A stretch of DNA of 44,015 bases. Source: Basidioascus undulatus (lineage: Eukaryota). Shown piece after piece: positions 2,430 through 32,244 of this stretch. Below the pieces are notes generated by a model, which had not been told where the DNA came from, made no database searches, and saw only the letters and a program-made list of their open reading frames with translations. A program made the position numbers and the translations under genes. The DNA lies in the NCBI GenBank assembly GCA_000826855.1, contig JTLS01000025.1, positions 1 to 44,015 of the forward strand. The letters are read 5' to 3'. How positions within the stretch are numbered: the stretch's first letter is position 1; every line of letters begins with the position of its first letter.

Positions 2430-5400
2430 ATGGCGTACGTGCTGCAGTGGACTCTTCCCTCGTGTGCGCTTAACCTCGGAAGCTTGTCCTCGCAGCGCGC
2501 TCAACAAGATGTTGATCCGCGGGATCCGCTCCTTCGACGACAAGCAGAGTAACATCATTGAGTTCTACTCTCCCGTTACCGTCATCTGCGGCCACAACGG
2601 CTCGGGCAAGACGGTGCGTACCTGCGCTCCCAGTCAGCGGCGGAAACAAAGTATTGGCCAGTGGCAGTGGCAGTGGCGGACGGTGTGTTGGAGCCGGCGA
2701 TGCCGCGCCGAGGCCTTCTCGGTTGCGTTGGGAGAGGGCCGACGAAGAGGATTGGCTAGTAGGGGAGCTGACACGCGATCCGCGCTCCCATGAGCTTGGC
2801 AACCTGCGCAGCCGTGCGCCGTGGTCGATGCGTCCTCGAAACCGCCTCCGAGATGAAACTCATCCTCTTCCTCTGCGCAGACCATCATCGAATGCCTCAA
2901 GTATGCGACGACTGGGGACATGCCCCCCAACACCAAGGGCGGAGCCTTCATCCACGACCCGAAGGTTCGTGCTCCTCCTTCCTTTGACCTCGACGCAGCA
3001 CTGAAGCCGCGGTCCTTCCACAGATGGCGCAGGAGAAGGAGATCAAAGCCCAAGTCAAGCTCCGCTTCCGTTCTGTCAACAAGCAGATGTTCACCGCGGT
3101 TCGGAACGTCCAAGTGACGGTTCGGAAGGGCGGCCTCACGATGAAGACGCTCGAGGGCGTGCTCAGCGTGCAGGATGCGTCGACCGAGCAGCGGAAGGGC
3201 AAGGTGCGTGCCTTATGTTTGCTACTCGCCTGTAATTAGAGCGCTCATGGACAGAGGGGCGAGCAGGTATCGACCATCTCCACCAAGTGTTCCGAGCTCG
3301 ACACCGAGATCCCCCGCCTGCTCGGCGTCTCCAAGGCGGTACTCGACAACGTCATCTTCTGCCATCAGGAGGAGTCCAACTGGCCACTGTCTGAGCCGGC
3401 GGCGCTGAAGAAAAAGTTCGACGAAATCTTCGAGGCGAGCCGGTACGTCTTCCTAACATCCCAAGCTCAACAGCGCGGCTCATCGCTGTGCAAGTCGATA
3501 GGTACACCAAGGCGCTCAAGCAGATCCAGGACATCCGCAAAGAGCGCGCTGGAGACCTAAAAGTCGACCGCGAGCGTCTTTCGTCGCTGAAGACGGACCG
3601 TGACCGTGCCGAGAAGGTATATCTTCAGGATCGGTTCTTGATGAAGAGATAAACGTTGTGCTGATACGGCCCTTGCCGCTAATCAGATCAAGCAGCAGCT
3701 TGCCGTACTTGAGGAGGGCGTCGCCGAGATGGACCGCGAGTTCGAGGAGCTCGACCAGCAGATCTCCGCTCTCTCCGCCGCGAACAAGATCTTCTATCAG
3801 AACGCGACCAAGTTCAACGAGATCTACAACAAGGTCGAGACGCTCGAGGAGCGCGAGAAGCTCATTAAGGAGAGTATGAGCAGCATCAAGGAGACGATGC
3901 AGGAGCTCCCCGGTACGTTATAGCTATCATCTCTGAGCGCTTGCCCGTGTGGTTCTCATTCGGCTGCTTGCGCATGGGATGACTGGGCAGATTCGGACGC
4001 GGAGCTTGCGTCCAAGCGTGCGAACTTCCAGAAGCACTTACAGGAGCAGCGCCAGCGTCGCGCTGAGGAGGTCCGCAACCGCGACGCGGAGGACGACACG
4101 CTCCGCGAGATAACGAAGCGCCACCAGAACAAACTCACCGAGCGTGGTCAGCTCGAAGCCGAAGCTCGTGTATGTCCTCGCCCTGCGCTTTCCCCTTTTC
4201 CGGTTCGCTTTGCTAAGGTCACGGCCGGCGCTGCAGAAATTCGAGCGCGACATCAACGAGCGCCAGGAGATCATCAGCGAGATCGCCGCGCGCCACGGCA
4301 TCCGCGGCTTCGACTATATCCCGCTCGAGGACGCTAAGATCGAGGAGTTCATCGACAAGCTGCGCGACTACGTCAAAAGGAGCGGCGCGGAGGTGGACCG
4401 GATCAGGGTGAGTGCTGCGCGGCTGTGCGCGAGACAGGCGGGAGAATTAACGAATAGTGGTGGACTGCAGCGCGAGGGTCGGGACACGCAGGCCGAGTAC
4501 GCGAACAAACTTCAAATGCTCAACAGTGACCTCGCCGCGACGAAGCAGGCGAAGGCGGGACTTCGTCAGCAGATCGTGCGTTCTCCAGGTCCGAACTCCT
4601 CCCAATGCTGGAACTGACGTCAACGTGTCATTCTCAATCTTAGGGAGACAACCAAGCCCGCGTCCTGCGCTTTACGAACGACCTTGAGCGCGTCAAAGTC
4701 TCGCAGTCGGACATCACCGAGGCGGAGACGGAGCTGAACCGCACCCGGCAACGCTTCGACGCCTCGCAAGCCGAGCTGACGGAAGCGGCATACGACGACC
4801 GGATCGCCCAACTTCGCGTCGAGGTCCGCAAGCTCGAGGACGAGAAGGACAAGCTCGGCGCGGACATGGCCGCGCTCAACCTCCAAGCCGACACGAGGGC
4901 GCGCCTCGGCATAAAGAAGAGCGACAGGAAGGCCAAGCTGGACGCCGCGCAGGCTCTGTGCGTGTCTGATTCTTGCTGTAACGAGGCGATCTGCACGCTG
5001 ACGCTGTCGAATGCAGCATCTCGTCCAAGAATGCGAAGCATAGGCAGCACGTCGGCACGGACGCAGTCGCGGAGTCGATGGAGTCCACCGTCACCCGCAC
5101 GTACAGGTATGCTGATAATCGGCGCGACACAACAAAACGAAGCTTACTGATGTCCTACCTTCTAGTGAGAAGCAGCAGGAGCTCGGCGTCGCGCAGACTA
5201 CGTCTCAGCAAGCCAACCGCGAGCTGCAACAGATCGAGTCGACGGTACAGAACTACAAAGCCCAACACCAGGAGAAGCGGAAAGAGCTGCAGGGTGCGTT
5301 GATTTGGCATAACCTGGCTCTCTCCTTGCTCAACACCTGCTTGTTCCGTTGCGCAGCGCTCCAGAGCGAGGTCAACATCGCGCTGGAGGAGAATGCCGCC

Positions 5401-8281
5401 GAGACGCTCGGCCAAGCGATCCAATTCGCGCAAGAAGAGGTCAACTTGCGCAGAGAGTACGCCTTTTCAACTTGAAAGACACGTCAGAACACTAACGGTC
5501 GCTACCCGCGCAGATCCATCAACGGCGGCGAGGCGTTGGAAAAGTGGTTCGAGGAGACGCTCGACAACGCCAAGGTCAAGCATGCCTGCCGGGGCTGCGG
5601 TCGGCACATCAAGAATGACGAGATGTCCAAGATCGAAAGACATGTGAGTTTACTAAGCTTATACCGCTGCACGAGCGTCACTGATGCGACTTGATCACAC
5701 AGATGCGCGACATGCTCAAGCGATACGGACCGCAAACTCGCCAAGAGCACGCCGACGAGCTCAAGGACTGGGAGGCCGAGCTCGACCGTCTCAAGGCGCT
5801 ACAGCCTGCCGAGGAGACGATCCGCAAGCTCAAGGACGAGATCCCCAAGCTCGACGCCGACGTGCGGCGAGAGGAGGCCAAATTGGACCAAGCTGTCCGG
5901 AAGATGGACCAAGTACGTCCTGTCATCTCTGCTTCGATCCACCGAACGCTGCGCTAACCCTGTCTTTCCAGGTAACGGCGACGATCGAGGGGCACAAGGC
6001 GGACCTGGCCGAGATGGAGGACCTCCGGCGCGCGGCGATCGACGTCTCGCGGTTGACGCGCGAAGCTCGCGATCTTGGCCGCGACATCGCCTTGCTCGAG
6101 CGCGAGCTCGAGGCTTCGTCAAACTCGACGCTCACGGTCGAGGATGTTCAGGAGCACCTGAACACGCTTACGGACTCGATGTGGGTTCATCCTTTATAGC
6201 ACTTGACTTGCTACATCCGCTGAAGCTTTATCGAATTCACAGCAAGCGCGCGAACACCGAGGTCGCAACGGCGCTGTCGGACAAGGAGAAGAAGACCCGC
6301 CAGCTGAACGCCCAGCAGCAGAGCATCCACAAGCAGGAGCTCGACCTCGGTCAGCTTCGTTCGCAATACCGCGAGCGCGAGAACGTCGATCGGTCGATAG
6401 AGGAGGTTCGCAAGACGATAGCGGAACTGCATGAGAAATCCAAGGTACGCTCGAAGTGGCTGCTTTGGCTTGATGTGACCGCTTACGCTCCTGCGTCTGT
6501 ACCGACGCTGTCAGGCTGCGGACGATGACATCGCGAAAGCGGCCGCGCCGATCTGTCAACTCGAGGAGGAGAAGTCGCAGCACGCGATCGAGGTCACCGA
6601 GAAGGAAGGCGCGGCGCAGCGTGCGTACTCGACCATCAGCCAGAGCCTCAGCCAGATGGATGCGCTAGACGGAACTGTCAAGGCGTACGTCCCATGCTCC
6701 ATGAGAGAACTACGCGGGTTCAGGCAATGCTAAACTCTTCAACAGTTACATCAACGGCAACGGCGAACGTCGCCTTCGCAACTGCGTCACGGAGATCGAC
6801 GACATAGCGAGGACCTCGAAGGAGACTCAGAAGCGCATCGACGCGATCAACTCGCGCATCACCGAGCTGGACCGCGAGGCGGCTCGTGCGAACGAGTCGG
6901 AGCGCAACCTCGGCGACAACATCAGGTACCGCGAGAAGGCGAGGGAGCTCGCGGACATCCGCGCCAAGATCAACGAGATCGACCTCGAGGAGACGGCGAA
7001 GGCGAAGCGCCAGTTCGACGAGAAGTACGACGCGAGCCGCAGGAAGGAGACGCAGATGAGGGGTCGGGTGCGTCGAACGGCAGGCGCCCGGTCTTCGCCT
7101 CTTGTTACTGACAACACTGCGGTGGTTATTAGCACAACGTTCTCGAAGGCCAGCGCCAGTCGGAACGCAATCGCATCAAGGAGCGCCGCGACGAACTCAA
7201 CACCGAGTACAAGAACATCCACCGCGACTATATCGACCAGCTCATAAAGGTCAAGGTACGTCTGCGTTGTGACGACCGTCTTCCGGACCGCAGTTCACGG
7301 TGATCTTCGAGAGACGTCCGACCTCGCTATTCAAGACCTCGAGAAGTACGGCAAGGCGCTCGAAAAGTGTGTATTTCCTGCATGTGCGACCGGCGCTGTA
7401 TGCTGACCCGCCTGCACCGGCAGCGCCATCATGCGGTACCATGGTCTCAAGATGGAAGAGATCAACGAGCAGATCCAGCACCTGTGGCAGAAGACGTATC
7501 AGGGCACCGGTGCGGCTTTTGTCAATCCTAGCCTTGACGCCACTGTGCTGACGAGCTCTTCCGCAGACATCGACAACATCCAGATCCGTTCGGACGCGGA
7601 GGGCGCGAAGGGGGGCAGGACGTATAACTATCGGGTGCGTGCATCCCCACCCGACTTTCAAACGGGGGCGGACTCGAACGGGGCGGACTGAAGCTTAATG
7701 TGGCTGGACTGGGGTTCAGGTGGTCATGACCAAGGATAATGTCGAGATGGACATGCGGGGGCGCTGTTCGGCCGGCCAGAAGGTCCTCGCATCCATCATC
7801 ATCCGCCTCGCGCTCGCCGACTCCTTCGGCAGCAACTGCGGCATTCTCGCGCTCGATGAGCCCACGACCAACCTCGACAAGGAGAACATCGACGCGTTGG
7901 CGGTCAGCCTGGCCGAGTGCGTTGCTCTTCCCCTTGCACACGTCGAGCGCTTGCTCATCTAGTCCCCTCACACGCAGCATCATCAATGAACGCCGGACGC
8001 AGTCGAGCTTCCAGGTAAGATGTGGGCGCTTGTGTATCCCTCGGTAAGGCCTTGACGCTGATTGTCTTTTCACTCGTAGCTTCTCATCATTACGCACGAT
8101 GAGGACTTCCTCGGCCGTCTCGCGCAGCACGACGTTCTCGACTACTACTGATAAGTCCTCTCGTACTACCACACTGCATTTCGGGACTATCGCAACCTAA
8201 CACGCTACTTGCCCTTCCACGCGTGTGAGCAGAGACCGCAGGCAGCGTAGTCAGATCGAGCGCAACAGGATCACGTCCTGA
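2430..8281 (+). CDS. RAD50: DNA double-strand break repair ATPase Rad50 (MRX/MRN complex), ~27 introns
   Basis: [16 protein letters not shown]; Walker [18 protein letters not shown]-loop [13 protein letters not shown]; long coiled coil; zinc hook CRGC (~5587); signature [10 protein letters not shown]; Walker B/D-loop [13 protein letters not shown]-loop IITHDE; C-terminus [26 protein letters not shown] 8279-8281. Confidence 0.98.
8151..8220 (+). other. Non-canonical AT-AC intron (70 nt), last intron of RAD50
   Basis: Boundaries TG|ATAAGT...CCTAAC(8196-8201)...CCCTTCCAC|G. Removal restores DYYW-RVSRD, which matches the Rad50 C-terminus; I found no GT-AG pair that does so. Confidence 0.8.
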
Positions 8282-8765
8282 GCGGCGGTCCCGCAGGACT
8301 TTCTGGATTGAGGTATTGAGGACATTCGTTTCGTTGCAATAACTGTATACCCGTCATTCTTCACTGTGTACTTGTTCGCAATCGCACGCATCCCCAGCAT
8401 GCTCTTCTTCTGTGCACCGCTTCTTGTGTTGCTCGGGCGAATCAGGATATCAGGAAAAGCGCAGACTCCAGGCTGTTTCTCCGTACCGCCCGAGGATAGA
8501 GGGTTCGGTCATTCAAGCTGACCGTCGGCAGCTCACTGTGAAAGATGTGTGCCCCAGCTCAGCTCGAGCTAATTTGACGCATTTCTGCAAATTTCTGCCT
8601 TGTCTGCCACCTGCTTCGGCCACCTGTTTCGGATGAAAACCTCCACTCAGAGCACCGCTCGACCCAGAGCCGCTTACTTCGCCACGTCATGTGGCACTTC
8701 TCCTGCCGATCCGGGTATTGTCTCGCCACCATCTCTCGAACCGCTTGCATCGGTACATCACAGCG

Positions 8766-31417: not shown

Positions 31418-32152
31418 GGGAGTAGAAGAGGTGGCGTTGTGAGATGCGTCCTGTTTTTTAGGTCACCTTCCGCAGACGTTGAGTCAATGCGGGAGGCAGG
31501 GCCAACGATATAGACGGGTTTCATGAATGTGCCGCCGCTGCCCCGCGAAGCTGGTGAAGAAGTCTCGCTTCGGGCTGCGCTTTCTGAACTAGATCAGCCT
31601 CGTTAGCTAGGGTGTTCCACTTGGCAAGTGGTATTATGAATGATTACAAATAAGCTTAGACAACTCCAATCGTGATTGTTGATGAATCTGAAGAGTGTTT
31701 GAGCCCCGAGGCCTGGCCATCCTGATTAGCTTAGCATGCTCAATCCGGTTGATGAAACGGAGGAAGATATCGGGAAATGTGAGTTGTAATCGTTCCAGTT
31801 GATAACACCTGAACGTGGACTGGAAAATCGCCATGTGAAGGAACCAGCCTGAGGGTGGGGTCGCTTTCATCTGTTGCTGGCCGACAGTCAAACAGTTCCG
31901 CCCCCGCTTGAGCCATGTCACTCTCAAAGATGTTCCACTAAACGACAAACCATCTTCTCAAACGCGCCCTAATTTCTACCTGCTGTGTTTACAGACTGTC
32001 AAGCAATGGCTCTTGCCGGGCTCAAAAGGTGCGACTGCCGGACGGGACGGAAGGCGGGGGCGGGTGGAGCGAGTGCTACATGGTGTTGCGGACGTTCTGA
32101 GGACGATGTGTTAAATGAAAGTGCCCCCCCAAAAAAAAAGCAACAAAAGATG

Positions 32153-32244
32153 CGACCAGAGCAGGATTTGAACCTACGCGGGCAAAGCCCATGAGATGTC
32201 GAGATGATTCGAGTCTCACGCCTTAACCGCTCGGCCATCTAGTC
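32153..32244 (-). tRNA. tRNA-Ser(CGA) with a 10-nt intron (32198-32207)
   Basis: Acceptor stem GACTAGA/TCTGGTC plus discriminator G; A-box TGGCCGAGCGG; anticodon arm TGAGA-CT-CGA-A^A-TCTCA; long variable arm GGGCTTTGCCC; T-loop GGTTCAAATCC; oligo-T Pol III terminator downstream. Confidence 0.95.

What the first reader, a model, noticed from the sequence alone, without database searches (positions are those of the whole stretch)
8151..8220. U2-type AT-AC intron required to complete Rad50
Seen: after ...HDVLDYY the genomic frame reads TGA. Removing 70 nt from ATAAGT to CCAC joins TG+G (Trp) and restores [19 protein letters not shown], matching the conserved Rad50 tail (YYxVSRD...S.I). The donor ATAAGT is the U2 consensus GTAAGT with G1>A, not the U12 ATATCCTT. 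There is a CCTAAC branch site and a pyrimidine tract. Established: terminal G-G to A-C double substitutions can be spliced by the major spliceosome, natural U2 AT-AC introns are very rare, and Dikarya are generally considered to lack the minor spliceosome. Both termini are changed in the compensatory way, which argues against sequencing error. Inference: retention yields a Rad50 lacking its last ~20 residues, so this could be a rate-limiting or regulatory intron. Standard gene finders would mis-annotate it.
Basis: partly seen in the sequence, partly recalled or inferred. Interest (0 to 1): 0.8.

Follow-up and report, generated by a model that had tools for sequence, protein, structure and literature searches.

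The report
Spliced AT-AC intron in fungal RAD50
The last intron of this basidiomycete's RAD50 DNA-repair gene starts with AT and ends with AC instead of GT and AG, is nevertheless spliced out, and looks in every other respect like an ordinary major-spliceosome intron: a rare but already known kind that gene finders tend to miss.

Summary
Bases 8151-8220 (70 nt) begin ATAAGT and end CAC. Unspliced, the frame stops at TGA 8149-8151.

A 4,142-letter contig of run X3 skips all eight introns in 6700-8600. Seven are GT..AG. The eighth joint is exactly 8150^8221, AT..AC, with no other possible placement. X3 is filed only as 'DNA?', but it behaves like a transcript assembly.

Two genomic contig sets, X1 and X2, show the same intron bases. 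They may be the window's own source.

Splicing creates the Trp codon and restores the conserved Rad50 tail.

The internal signals are U2-type:
- It is the only one of the gene's 27 introns with AAGT at +3 to +6.
- It has an exact CTAAC 20 nt from the 3' end.
- It has a strong pyrimidine tract.
- It matches the U12 donor consensus at only 3 of 8 positions.

The same intron position holds a GT..AG intron in 41 of 41 relatives that have it, so AT-AC is most likely derived.

U2-type AT-AC introns with an /ATAAGT consensus are known but very rare (PMC1557818, PMC5029451). This is therefore a new member of a known kind. Nothing here supports a regulatory role.

The parts
2430..8281 (+). RAD50 coding region: 28 exons and 27 introns (26 GT-AG, 1 AT-AC), model of 1313 aa
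   Evidence: The last 8 introns come from the X3 spliced contig. The other 19 come from my own frame-keeping search plus hand fixes and are not verified by RNA. An earlier 1334-aa version, before 5294-5356 was removed, aligns end to end with RAD50 orthologues P0013, P0030, P0009 and P0057. Pfam AAA_23 matches the first large exon and SbcC_Walker_B matches 7720-7914.
7978..8014 (+). 37-nt micro-exon two exons upstream of the AT-AC intron
   Evidence: Joints 7916>7978 and 8012>8078 (cut +2) in the X3 contig.
8080..8150 (+). Penultimate coding exon, carrying the H-loop 'THD' and ending ...TAC TAC TG
   Evidence: The peptide aligns to the same exon in 78 of 80 metagenome loci, counting all loci with a hit for this exon except L057 and L080.
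8149..8151 (+). In-frame TGA that ends the protein after ...DYY if the intron is retained
8151..8220 (+). AT-AC intron, 70 nt, phase 2 inside a Trp codon (TG|G)
   Evidence: Joint 8150>8221 'skips 70, AT..AC' in X3 record 5. Genomic contigs of X1 and X2 are identical to the window, with 0 other letters.
8151..8156 (+). 5' splice site ATAAGT, which is the U2-type consensus GTAAGT with A at +1
   Evidence: 4 of 4 matches at +3 to +6, against 1-3 in the other 26 introns. It matches the U12 consensus ATATCCTT at 3 of 8 positions.
8197..8201 (+). Predicted branch site CTAAC, branch A at 8200, 20 nt before the 3' end
   Evidence: Prediction only; no lariat data.
8201..8217 (+). Pyrimidine-rich tract, 76% C/T
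   Evidence: 0.76, against 0.35-0.82 in the other 26 introns.
8218..8220 (+). 3' splice site CAC
8221..8281 (+). Last coding exon, the conserved Rad50 tail RVSRD..., with the stop at 8279-8281
8282..8387 (+). 3' untranslated region as far as the X3 contig reaches
   Evidence: X3 record 5 ends at 8387. A contig end is not a mapped poly(A) site.

Best explanation
8151-8220 is a real, spliced intron of the RAD50 gene of a basidiomycete fungus. Its terminal dinucleotides are AT and AC instead of GT and AG. It is most likely removed by the ordinary major (U2-type) spliceosome. Positions +2 to +6 (TAAGT) pair with U1 and U6 as in a consensus donor, CTAAC at 8197-8201 pairs with U2, and the A at the first position and the C at the last replace the usual G-G contact between intron ends. 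It most likely arose from an older GT-AG intron at the same position through two substitutions, G to A at the first base and G to C at the last. Splicing is needed for a full-length protein. It builds the Trp codon across the joint and adds the last 20 residues of the ATPase head. Shown here: the bases, the joint and the conservation of the tail. Inferred: which spliceosome acts, the branch point and the direction of change.
For: (1): one X3 contig (4,142 letters, depth 23.1) skips 8 of 8 introns in 6700-8600. Seven have GT..AG ends and one is 8150>8221 with AT..AC ends and no ambiguity. The joined form is absent from the genomic contigs of X1 and X2 (0 contigs), so it is not a retrocopy present in those assemblies. 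(2): X1 (depth 17.4, record of 10,198 letters) and X2 (depth 42.5, record of 36,582 letters) both read the intron exactly as in the window. (3): the spliced product ends with the YYW|RVSRD..QRS.IE.. tail shared by basidiomycete Rad50, and the model aligns end to end with four orthologues. (4): among the gene's 27 introns it alone has AAGT at +3 to +6; it has 7 of 9 matches to CAG|GTAAGT (others 4-8); it has an exact CTAAC 20 nt from the end (2 of the other 26 have an exact CTAAC); its pyrimidine fraction is 0.76; its length is 70 against a median of 61. It matches the U12 donor consensus at 3 of 8 positions, and its best match to TCCTTAAC is 5 of 8, at a site that ends only 7 nt from the 3' end. 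(5): 41 metagenome loci carry an intron at the same codon and phase, and 41 of 41 are GT..AG. (6): in a tree of 63 rows (50 distinct) the window sits in a 33-row clade (95/90), between L021 (GT-AG) and a 30-row GT-AG clade (97/95). (7) Papers. U2-type AT-AC introns have a strong /ATAAGT consensus, and an engineered AT-AC intron splices in yeast (PMC5029451, passages). G1-to-A is rescued by last-G-to-C in yeast and human, though less efficiently (PMC1557818, section 20). No convincing minor introns are found in Ascomycota or Basidiomycota (PMC10639083, passages).
Against: X3's library type is not on record; the tool marks it 'DNA?'. That it is RNA-derived is my inference from its content. RNA cannot show the intron's own end bases. 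Those rest on X1 and X2, which may be the window's source and are then not independent of it. No whole genome is held, so I could not check that U11, U12, U4atac and U6atac are absent. One paper reports such RNA genes in a basidiomycete yeast (PMC7072748, passage). The branch point is only predicted. The direction of change rests on 103 alignment columns, a midpoint root and one fork at 95/66. Nineteen of the 27 introns used for comparison are my predictions, not RNA-verified.
Confidence: 0.85

Rival explanations
1. It is a U12-type (minor spliceosome) AT-AC intron, and this lineage has kept a minor spliceosome.
For: AT-AC ends are typical of one class of U12-type introns. Frey and Pucker report U12-type snRNA genes in one basidiomycete yeast (PMC7072748, passage). 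The snRNAs could not be searched here because no genome is held.
Against: The donor matches ATATCCTT at only 3 of 8 positions. No TCCTTAAC-like branch site lies at the right distance; the best match is 5 of 8 and ends 7 nt from the 3' end. The donor is instead the exact /ATAAGT of U2-type AT-AC introns (PMC5029451, passages). The orthologous intron is an ordinary GT-AG intron with U2-type donors in 41 of 41 relatives. Larue and Roy find no convincing minor introns in Basidiomycota (PMC10639083, passages).
Confidence: 0.03
2. The joint is not evidence of splicing. X3 is not RNA-derived, or the contig is an assembly artefact, and the true gene ends at TGA 8149-8151 with a truncated Rad50.
For: X3 is listed as 'DNA?' and no holder is on record as RNA. 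The evidence is a single contig.
Against: That one contig removes 8 of 8 introns precisely, including those around a 37-nt micro-exon, and continues 106 nt past the stop. By my gene model it also includes about 94 nt upstream of the ATG. X3 totals 15.7 Mb against 34-35 Mb for the genomic runs of the same organism. The joined form is absent from X1 and X2. The lost tail is conserved across basidiomycete and ascomycete Rad50 and aligns inside solved Rad50 chains.
Confidence: 0.04
3. It is spliced, but slowly or conditionally. Retention, which gives a protein ending at ...DYY, would then tune Rad50 level. This is the reader's regulatory idea, and it adds to the main explanation rather than replacing it.
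For: The AT-AC pair restores splicing 'although less efficiently' in yeast and human tests (PMC1557818, section 20). Retention stops translation exactly at the exon end.
Against: There is no retained-intron contig in X3, and the only assembled form is spliced; contigs drop rare forms, so this is weak evidence. The intron carries the strongest donor, branch and pyrimidine signals in the gene, which looks like compensation for efficient splicing. The state is not conserved in any of the 41 relatives, which a selected regulatory device might be.
Confidence: 0.1

Closest known systems
U2-type ('type II') AT-AC introns of animals, e.g. SCN4A/SCN5A and TAF2 (Sheth et al. 2006, PMC1557818, section 20 and table passage; Gould et al. 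2016, PMC5029451, passages)
   Same: AT and AC ends, the /ATAAGT donor consensus, an otherwise normal U2-type branch site and pyrimidine tract, and great rarity (24 of 610,067 introns in five species).
   Different: The host is a basidiomycete fungus. The animal cases are conserved between orthologues, whereas this one is GT-AG in all 41 relatives examined, so it looks like a recent conversion rather than the 'relic' those authors suggest. Dependence on U2 was tested for SCN4A/5A but not here.
Engineered first-base G-to-A plus last-base G-to-C double mutants in yeast and human introns (cited in PMC1557818 section 20 and PMC5029451 passages; the primary papers were not read)
   Same: The same pair of compensating changes at the two intron ends, spliced by the major spliceosome.
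   Different: Those are laboratory constructs. This one is natural, lies in an important gene and has above-average flanking signals.
Natural AT-AC intron nested in the S. cerevisiae RPL30 intron (PMC5029451, passages)
   Same: A natural AT-AC splice in a fungus that lacks the minor spliceosome.
   Different: The RPL30 form makes up 1-2% of transcripts and its donor does not resemble /ATAAGT. Here the AT-AC splice gives the conserved protein, is the only assembled form, and has the exact /ATAAGT donor.
AT-AC junctions in RNA-seq surveys of filamentous ascomycetes (Fusarium graminearum, PMC3577648, passage; Trichoderma longibrachiatum, 69 of 14,305 junctions, PMC4324775, passage); xylanase genes of filamentous fungi 'hypothesized' to hold AT-AC II introns (PMC1557818, section 20)
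   Same: AT-AC introns in fungi of the Dikarya, found from transcript data.
   Different: Those are ascomycetes, and the passages I read give no donor type or orthologue comparison. This one is in a basidiomycete RAD50, with U2-type signals and the ancestral state documented.
U12-type AT-AC introns
   Same: Only the terminal dinucleotides.
   Different: The donor and branch-site consensus are not met.

Membership tests
U2-type (type II) AT-AC intron | Intron begins with AT and ends with AC | tested here: met
   (bases). X1 and X2 genomic contigs are identical, and the joint is labelled AT..AC with no alternative placement.
U2-type (type II) AT-AC intron | It is actually excised at these borders | tested here: met
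   X3 record 5 joins 8150 to 8221. Caveat: X3's library type is not on record, and its RNA origin is inferred from 8 of 8 introns being removed.
U2-type (type II) AT-AC intron | 5' splice site fits the U2-type consensus except at +1 (/ATAAGT) | tested here: met
   ATAAGT, with 7 of 9 matches to CAG|GTAAGT. The consensus is taken from PMC5029451 and PMC1557818 (passages).
U2-type (type II) AT-AC intron | Lacks the U12-type donor and branch-site motifs | tested here: met
   3 of 8 matches to ATATCCTT; the best match to TCCTTAAC is 5 of 8 and misplaced. The TCCTTAAC consensus is recalled; ATATCCTT is quoted in PMC5029451.
U2-type (type II) AT-AC intron | Splicing depends on U1/U2/U4/U6, not on U11/U12/U4atac/U6atac | not testable with these tools
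   Needs snRNA depletion or genetics. The genome is not held, so even the absence of minor snRNAs could not be checked. Papers report none in Basidiomycota (PMC10639083, passages).
U12-type AT-AC intron | Donor /ATATCCTT and branch site TCCTTAAC 10-15 nt from the 3' end | tested here: not met
RAD50 (SMC-like ABC ATPase of the Mre11 complex) | N-terminal P-loop half and C-terminal signature/Walker B half of the ATPase head | tested here: met
   AAA_23 (E 1.8e-10) on 2497-2613 and SbcC_Walker_B (E 9.3e-08) on 7720-7914; the best named hits are RAD50 of basidiomycetes.
RAD50 (SMC-like ABC ATPase of the Mre11 complex) | Full-length collinearity with known RAD50, including the long coiled coil | tested here: met
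   blastp over residues 1-1334 of the model against 1-1308 of P0013 (42.7% identity), and similar end-to-end alignments with P0030, P0009 and P0057.
RAD50 (SMC-like ABC ATPase of the Mre11 complex) | Central zinc hook (CxxC) | tested here: inconclusive
   A C-x-x-C is visible in the translation of exon 5514-5643, but Pfam gave 0 families for that 43-aa exon at E <= 0.01.

The most novel reading that the evidence does not exclude
This is a recent, natural GT-AG to AT-AC conversion in a fungus without a minor spliceosome, at an intron position that relatives have kept as GT-AG. It may have passed through a viable intermediate that used the in-frame AG 9 nt downstream (8228-8229). It may still be spliced less efficiently than its neighbours, so that the level of full-length Rad50 depends on how tolerant the spliceosome's second step is. 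If so, it would be a natural reporter for the contact between the first and last intron bases, and a counter-example to the view that U2-type AT-AC introns are only relics.
Probability: 0.12. Interest if true: 0.6.

Novelty: new member of a known kind. Interest (0 to 1): 0.35.

Why it matters
Practically, a gene finder limited to GT-AG and GC-AG would end this RAD50 at ...DYY or invent a wrong tail, so the annotation needs a non-canonical junction here. Scientifically, this is a clean natural example, backed by a transcript contig, of the compensating A...C pair at intron ends working in a fungal lineage reported to lack the minor spliceosome. The ancestral GT-AG state is documented in 41 relatives. 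That bears on whether U2-type AT-AC introns are relics (Sheth et al. 2006) or can arise anew. It adds no new kind of intron or mechanism.

Tried and rejected
- Whole genome: none is held, so I made no search for U11/U12/U4atac/U6atac or for other AT-AC introns genome-wide. Rfam on the window found only a tRNA, which says nothing about minor snRNAs.
- RNA runs: no RNA holder is listed.
- X4 (soil metagenome, 0.05 of the words): it gives only short pieces. One 226-letter contig has 3 differences over 7205-7427, and none covers the intron. It yields no information on the intron in wild relatives and no conclusion about habitat.
- Closer relatives: a coiled-coil exon (4644-4955) found none at E <= 0.001 among 281 candidates, so the age of the AT-AC state could not be narrowed.
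- GT-AG or GC-AG alternatives: all in-phase options delete conserved residues, so I rejected them.
- First gene-model pass: it over-spliced (2,681 nt against about 2,900 expected) and I replaced it.
- Earlier notes of this scan: nothing on this genome. A word search returned one unrelated note on GC-donor introns in an amoeba, which I did not use.
- Paper searches for an AT-AC intron in RAD50 (3 papers, titles unrelated, not read) and for fungal xylanase AT-AC introns (only Sheth 2006 and one unrelated paper) found no prior description. PMC3091305 matched 'AT-AC' only through 'KS-AT-ACP' domain strings.
- Supplements are closed. Files S7 and S9 of PMC7072748 (U12 status and splice-site counts per fungal species) and Additional file 12 of PMC3577648 could bear on how common such introns are in fungi.
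Full report
**What is in the sequence.** The window's + strand reads ...GAC TAC TAC TG|ATAAGTCC... at 8140-8158, has CTAAC at 8197-8201, and reads ...CCCTTCCAC|GCGTGTGAGC... around 8220/8221. Left unspliced, the frame meets TGA at 8149-8151. In the downstream frame there is a TAA at 8198-8200, and no AG lies between it and 8227. No GT-AG intron can therefore link the two conserved reading frames without losing conserved residues. One search lists every in-phase GT-AG, GC-AG, GT-AC, AT-AC and AT-AG junction around the site. Only 8151-8220 gives the conserved join, with ...DYY, then a Trp built from TG+G, then RVSRD....

**The gene.** The surrounding gene is RAD50.
- The exon at 7720-7914 matches basidiomycete RAD50 proteins at up to 92% identity and the Pfam family SbcC_Walker_B. 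The first large exon matches AAA_23.
- I built a gene model running from ATG 2430 to the stop at 8279-8281. It uses the eight introns seen in transcript data, a frame-keeping search for the others, and hand fixes at the 5' end.
- An earlier 1334-aa version aligns end to end with four RAD50 orthologues, for example residues 1-1334 against 1-1308 of P0013 at 42.7% identity.
- Removing one more likely in-frame intron (5294-5356) gives 1313 aa, within the orthologues' 1306-1313.
- The model has 27 introns: 26 GT-AG and one AT-AC. Nineteen of them are predictions, not RNA-verified.

**Is it spliced?** No whole genome is held and no run is on record as RNA. Four holders were laid on 6700-8600.
- X1 and X2 are genomic. 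Each has one contig covering the whole stretch with 0 differences, at depths 17.4 and 42.5, in records of 10,198 and 36,582 letters.
- They are separate read sets by depth and contig structure. They may be the window's source, however, and then they are not independent of it.
- X3 comes from the same sample as X2 and totals 15.7 Mb, against 34-35 Mb for the genomic runs.
- X3 holds one contig of 4,142 letters (depth 23.1) that skips eight stretches. Seven have GT..AG ends. The eighth is 8150 to 8221, 'skips 70, AT..AC', with 73 letters on the shorter side and no letters that fit on both sides, so the joint cannot be placed anywhere else.
- The contig also crosses a 37-nt micro-exon (7978-8014) and runs 106 nt beyond the stop, to 8387. 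By my model it includes about 94 nt upstream of the ATG.
- The joined form is absent from X1 and X2.
- I therefore read X3 as a transcript assembly although it is labelled 'DNA?'. That is an inference.
- No X3 contig covers the intron. Contigs drop rare forms, so this says nothing firm about retention.

**What the splice achieves.** The joined reading frame ends with the tail shared by basidiomycete Rad50 (YYW RVSRD..QKS.IER.R in most full-length hits). In the rust orthologue fragment P0004 the same tail aligns inside the sequences of solved eukaryotic Rad50 chains: 5da9_A residues 279-443 of 449 and 9bi4_C residues 1146-1303 of 1312. The tail is therefore part of the ATPase head. Without splicing, the protein would lack the Trp and the last 20 residues.

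**Which spliceosome?** The internal signals are those of the gene's ordinary introns, only stronger.

| Feature | AT-AC intron | The other 26 introns |
|---|---|---|
| Matches to AAGT at +3 to +6 | 4 of 4 | 1-3 |
| Matches to CAG\|GTAAGT | 7 of 9, despite the A at +1 | 4-8 |
| Branch site | exact CTAAC, branch A 20 nt from the 3' end | CTRAY within 8-40 nt in 11; exact CTAAC in 2 |
| Pyrimidine fraction, -20 to -4 | 0.76 | 0.35-0.82 |
| Length | 70 nt | median 61, range 51-267 |

- Against the U12-type consensus, the donor matches ATATCCTT at 3 of 8 positions. The best match to TCCTTAAC is 5 of 8, at a site that ends only 7 nt from the 3' end.
- The donor is letter for letter the /ATAAGT consensus reported for U2-type AT-AC introns (PMC5029451, passages; PMC1557818, methods passage and section 20).
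- Those papers also state that a first-base G-to-A change is rescued by a last-base G-to-C change in yeast and human introns, 'although less efficiently', and that an engineered AT-AC intron splices in yeast.
- A survey of over 3,000 genomes found no convincing minor introns in Ascomycota or Basidiomycota and describes complete absence from Dikarya (PMC10639083, passages).
- One study did report U12-type snRNA genes in a single basidiomycete yeast (PMC7072748, passage), and I could not search this genome. I therefore keep the U12-type reading open at about 3%.

**Origin.** I fetched 80 metagenome loci that encode relatives of the 7720-7914 exon and located the flanking exons in each.
- Sixty-two loci were scored automatically. 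Forty-one have an intron at the same codon and phase (37 as TG|...|G and 4 as CA|...|A), and 41 of 41 are GT..AG. Twenty-one have no intron there.
- Eighteen rows were dropped: 9 had no tail hit and 9 were not aligned up to the junction.
- I inspected 14 of the 18 by eye.
  - L007 and L039 have a GT-AG intron two codons upstream.
  - L055 and L056 have none at this site but a GT-AG intron further into the tail.
  - Nine have no intron at the site.
  - L080 ends before the site.
- I did not inspect L057, L064, L077 and L079.
- Read-through gene calls among the protein hits (P0080, P0086, P0112) also fit GT donors at this position. P0079 would fit a GC donor, an inference from back-translation only.
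- No relative shows AT-AC, GT-AC or AT-AG.
- A tree of the C-terminal head peptides has 63 rows, 50 distinct, and 103 columns. It puts the window in a 33-row clade (95/90) with 31 GT-AG rows and one intron-less row.
- In that tree L021 (GT-AG) branches first, at a fork with 95/66 support. The other 30 GT-AG rows form a clade (97/95).
- With the midpoint root, GT-AG bearers lie on both sides of the window, so AT-AC is most simply a change on the window's own branch. This is modest evidence because there are few columns, the rooting is by midpoint only, and L021 has a long branch.
- One detail from the sequence alone: the next AG downstream (8228-8229) is in phase. An intermediate that had lost the original AG could therefore have used it, at the cost of three codons. 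This is speculation about the path, not a finding.

**Regulation.** I found nothing for it. The intron has the best signals of the gene, which looks like compensation for the odd ends. That is as described for GC-AG introns (PMC1557818, passage) and for the strong consensus of U2-type AT-AC introns (PMC5029451, passage). The only assembled transcript is fully spliced. Efficiency can be measured only with raw reads.

**Comparison with what is known, and novelty.**
- U2-type AT-AC introns are a known, very rare class: 24 of 610,067 introns in five species, with none in C. elegans or A. thaliana (PMC1557818, table passage and section 20).
- In fungi of the Dikarya, AT-AC junctions have been reported in four ways.
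  - They appear among Sanger-confirmed non-canonical sites in Fusarium graminearum (PMC3577648, passage).
  - They make up 69 of 14,305 junctions in Trichoderma longibrachiatum (PMC4324775, passage).
  - A 1-2% isoform lies inside the yeast RPL30 intron (PMC5029451, passages).
  - They were hypothesised for fungal xylanase genes (PMC1557818, section 20).
- Across fungal annotations AT-AC is rarer than in animals or plants (PMC7072748, passages).
- My searches for an AT-AC intron in RAD50 and for AT-AC in basidiomycetes found no description of this one. The basidiomycete papers I opened only list AT-AC among accepted junction types (PMC5389616 and PMC12230235, passages).
- This is therefore a new member of a known kind. 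It is well documented, useful for annotation, and mildly informative on whether such introns arise anew.

**Verdict.** My confidence is 0.85 that this is a real intron spliced by the major spliceosome. Interest is moderate to low, at 0.35.

Noticed in passing
window 7978-8014: A 37-nt micro-exon of RAD50, flanked by 61- and 65-nt GT-AG introns and crossed by the X3 spliced contig. This is another feature gene finders often miss.
   Followed up: partly
window 2430-2495: The RAD50 start appears to be a 5-nt first coding exon (ATGGC) followed by a 61-nt GT-AG intron. This is inferred from the frame and from the orthologues' N-termini, not RNA-checked.
   Followed up: partly
window 5294-5356: A 63-nt stretch with good GT-AG intron signals that is in frame and free of stops. 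Removing it brings the protein to the orthologues' length. Whether it is always spliced is unknown.
   Followed up: partly
window 2614-2880: The second RAD50 intron is 267 nt, about four times the gene's median of 61 nt. I did not examine what it contains.
   Followed up: no
window 32152-32244 (-): A tRNA-Phe (GAA) gene of 93 nt. The Rfam model's 71 positions are spread over 92 bases, so it probably has a tRNA intron.
   Followed up: no
L007:1950-2050 and L039:820-930: In two relatives the last RAD50 intron lies two codons upstream (AA|GT...AG|G, before ...YWR) instead of in the Trp codon. This is either a shifted or an independent intron position.
   Followed up: partly
protein P0079: A metagenome gene call reads ...YYW then Q-V-L.... 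By back-translation this would fit a GC donor (TG|GCARGT) at the orthologous intron in that relative. No DNA was seen.
   Followed up: no
window 7205-7427 (run X4): A soil-metagenome contig of 226 letters differs at only 3 places from this RAD50 stretch, intron included, so a very close relative or the same species occurs in that data set. It does not reach the AT-AC intron.
   Followed up: no
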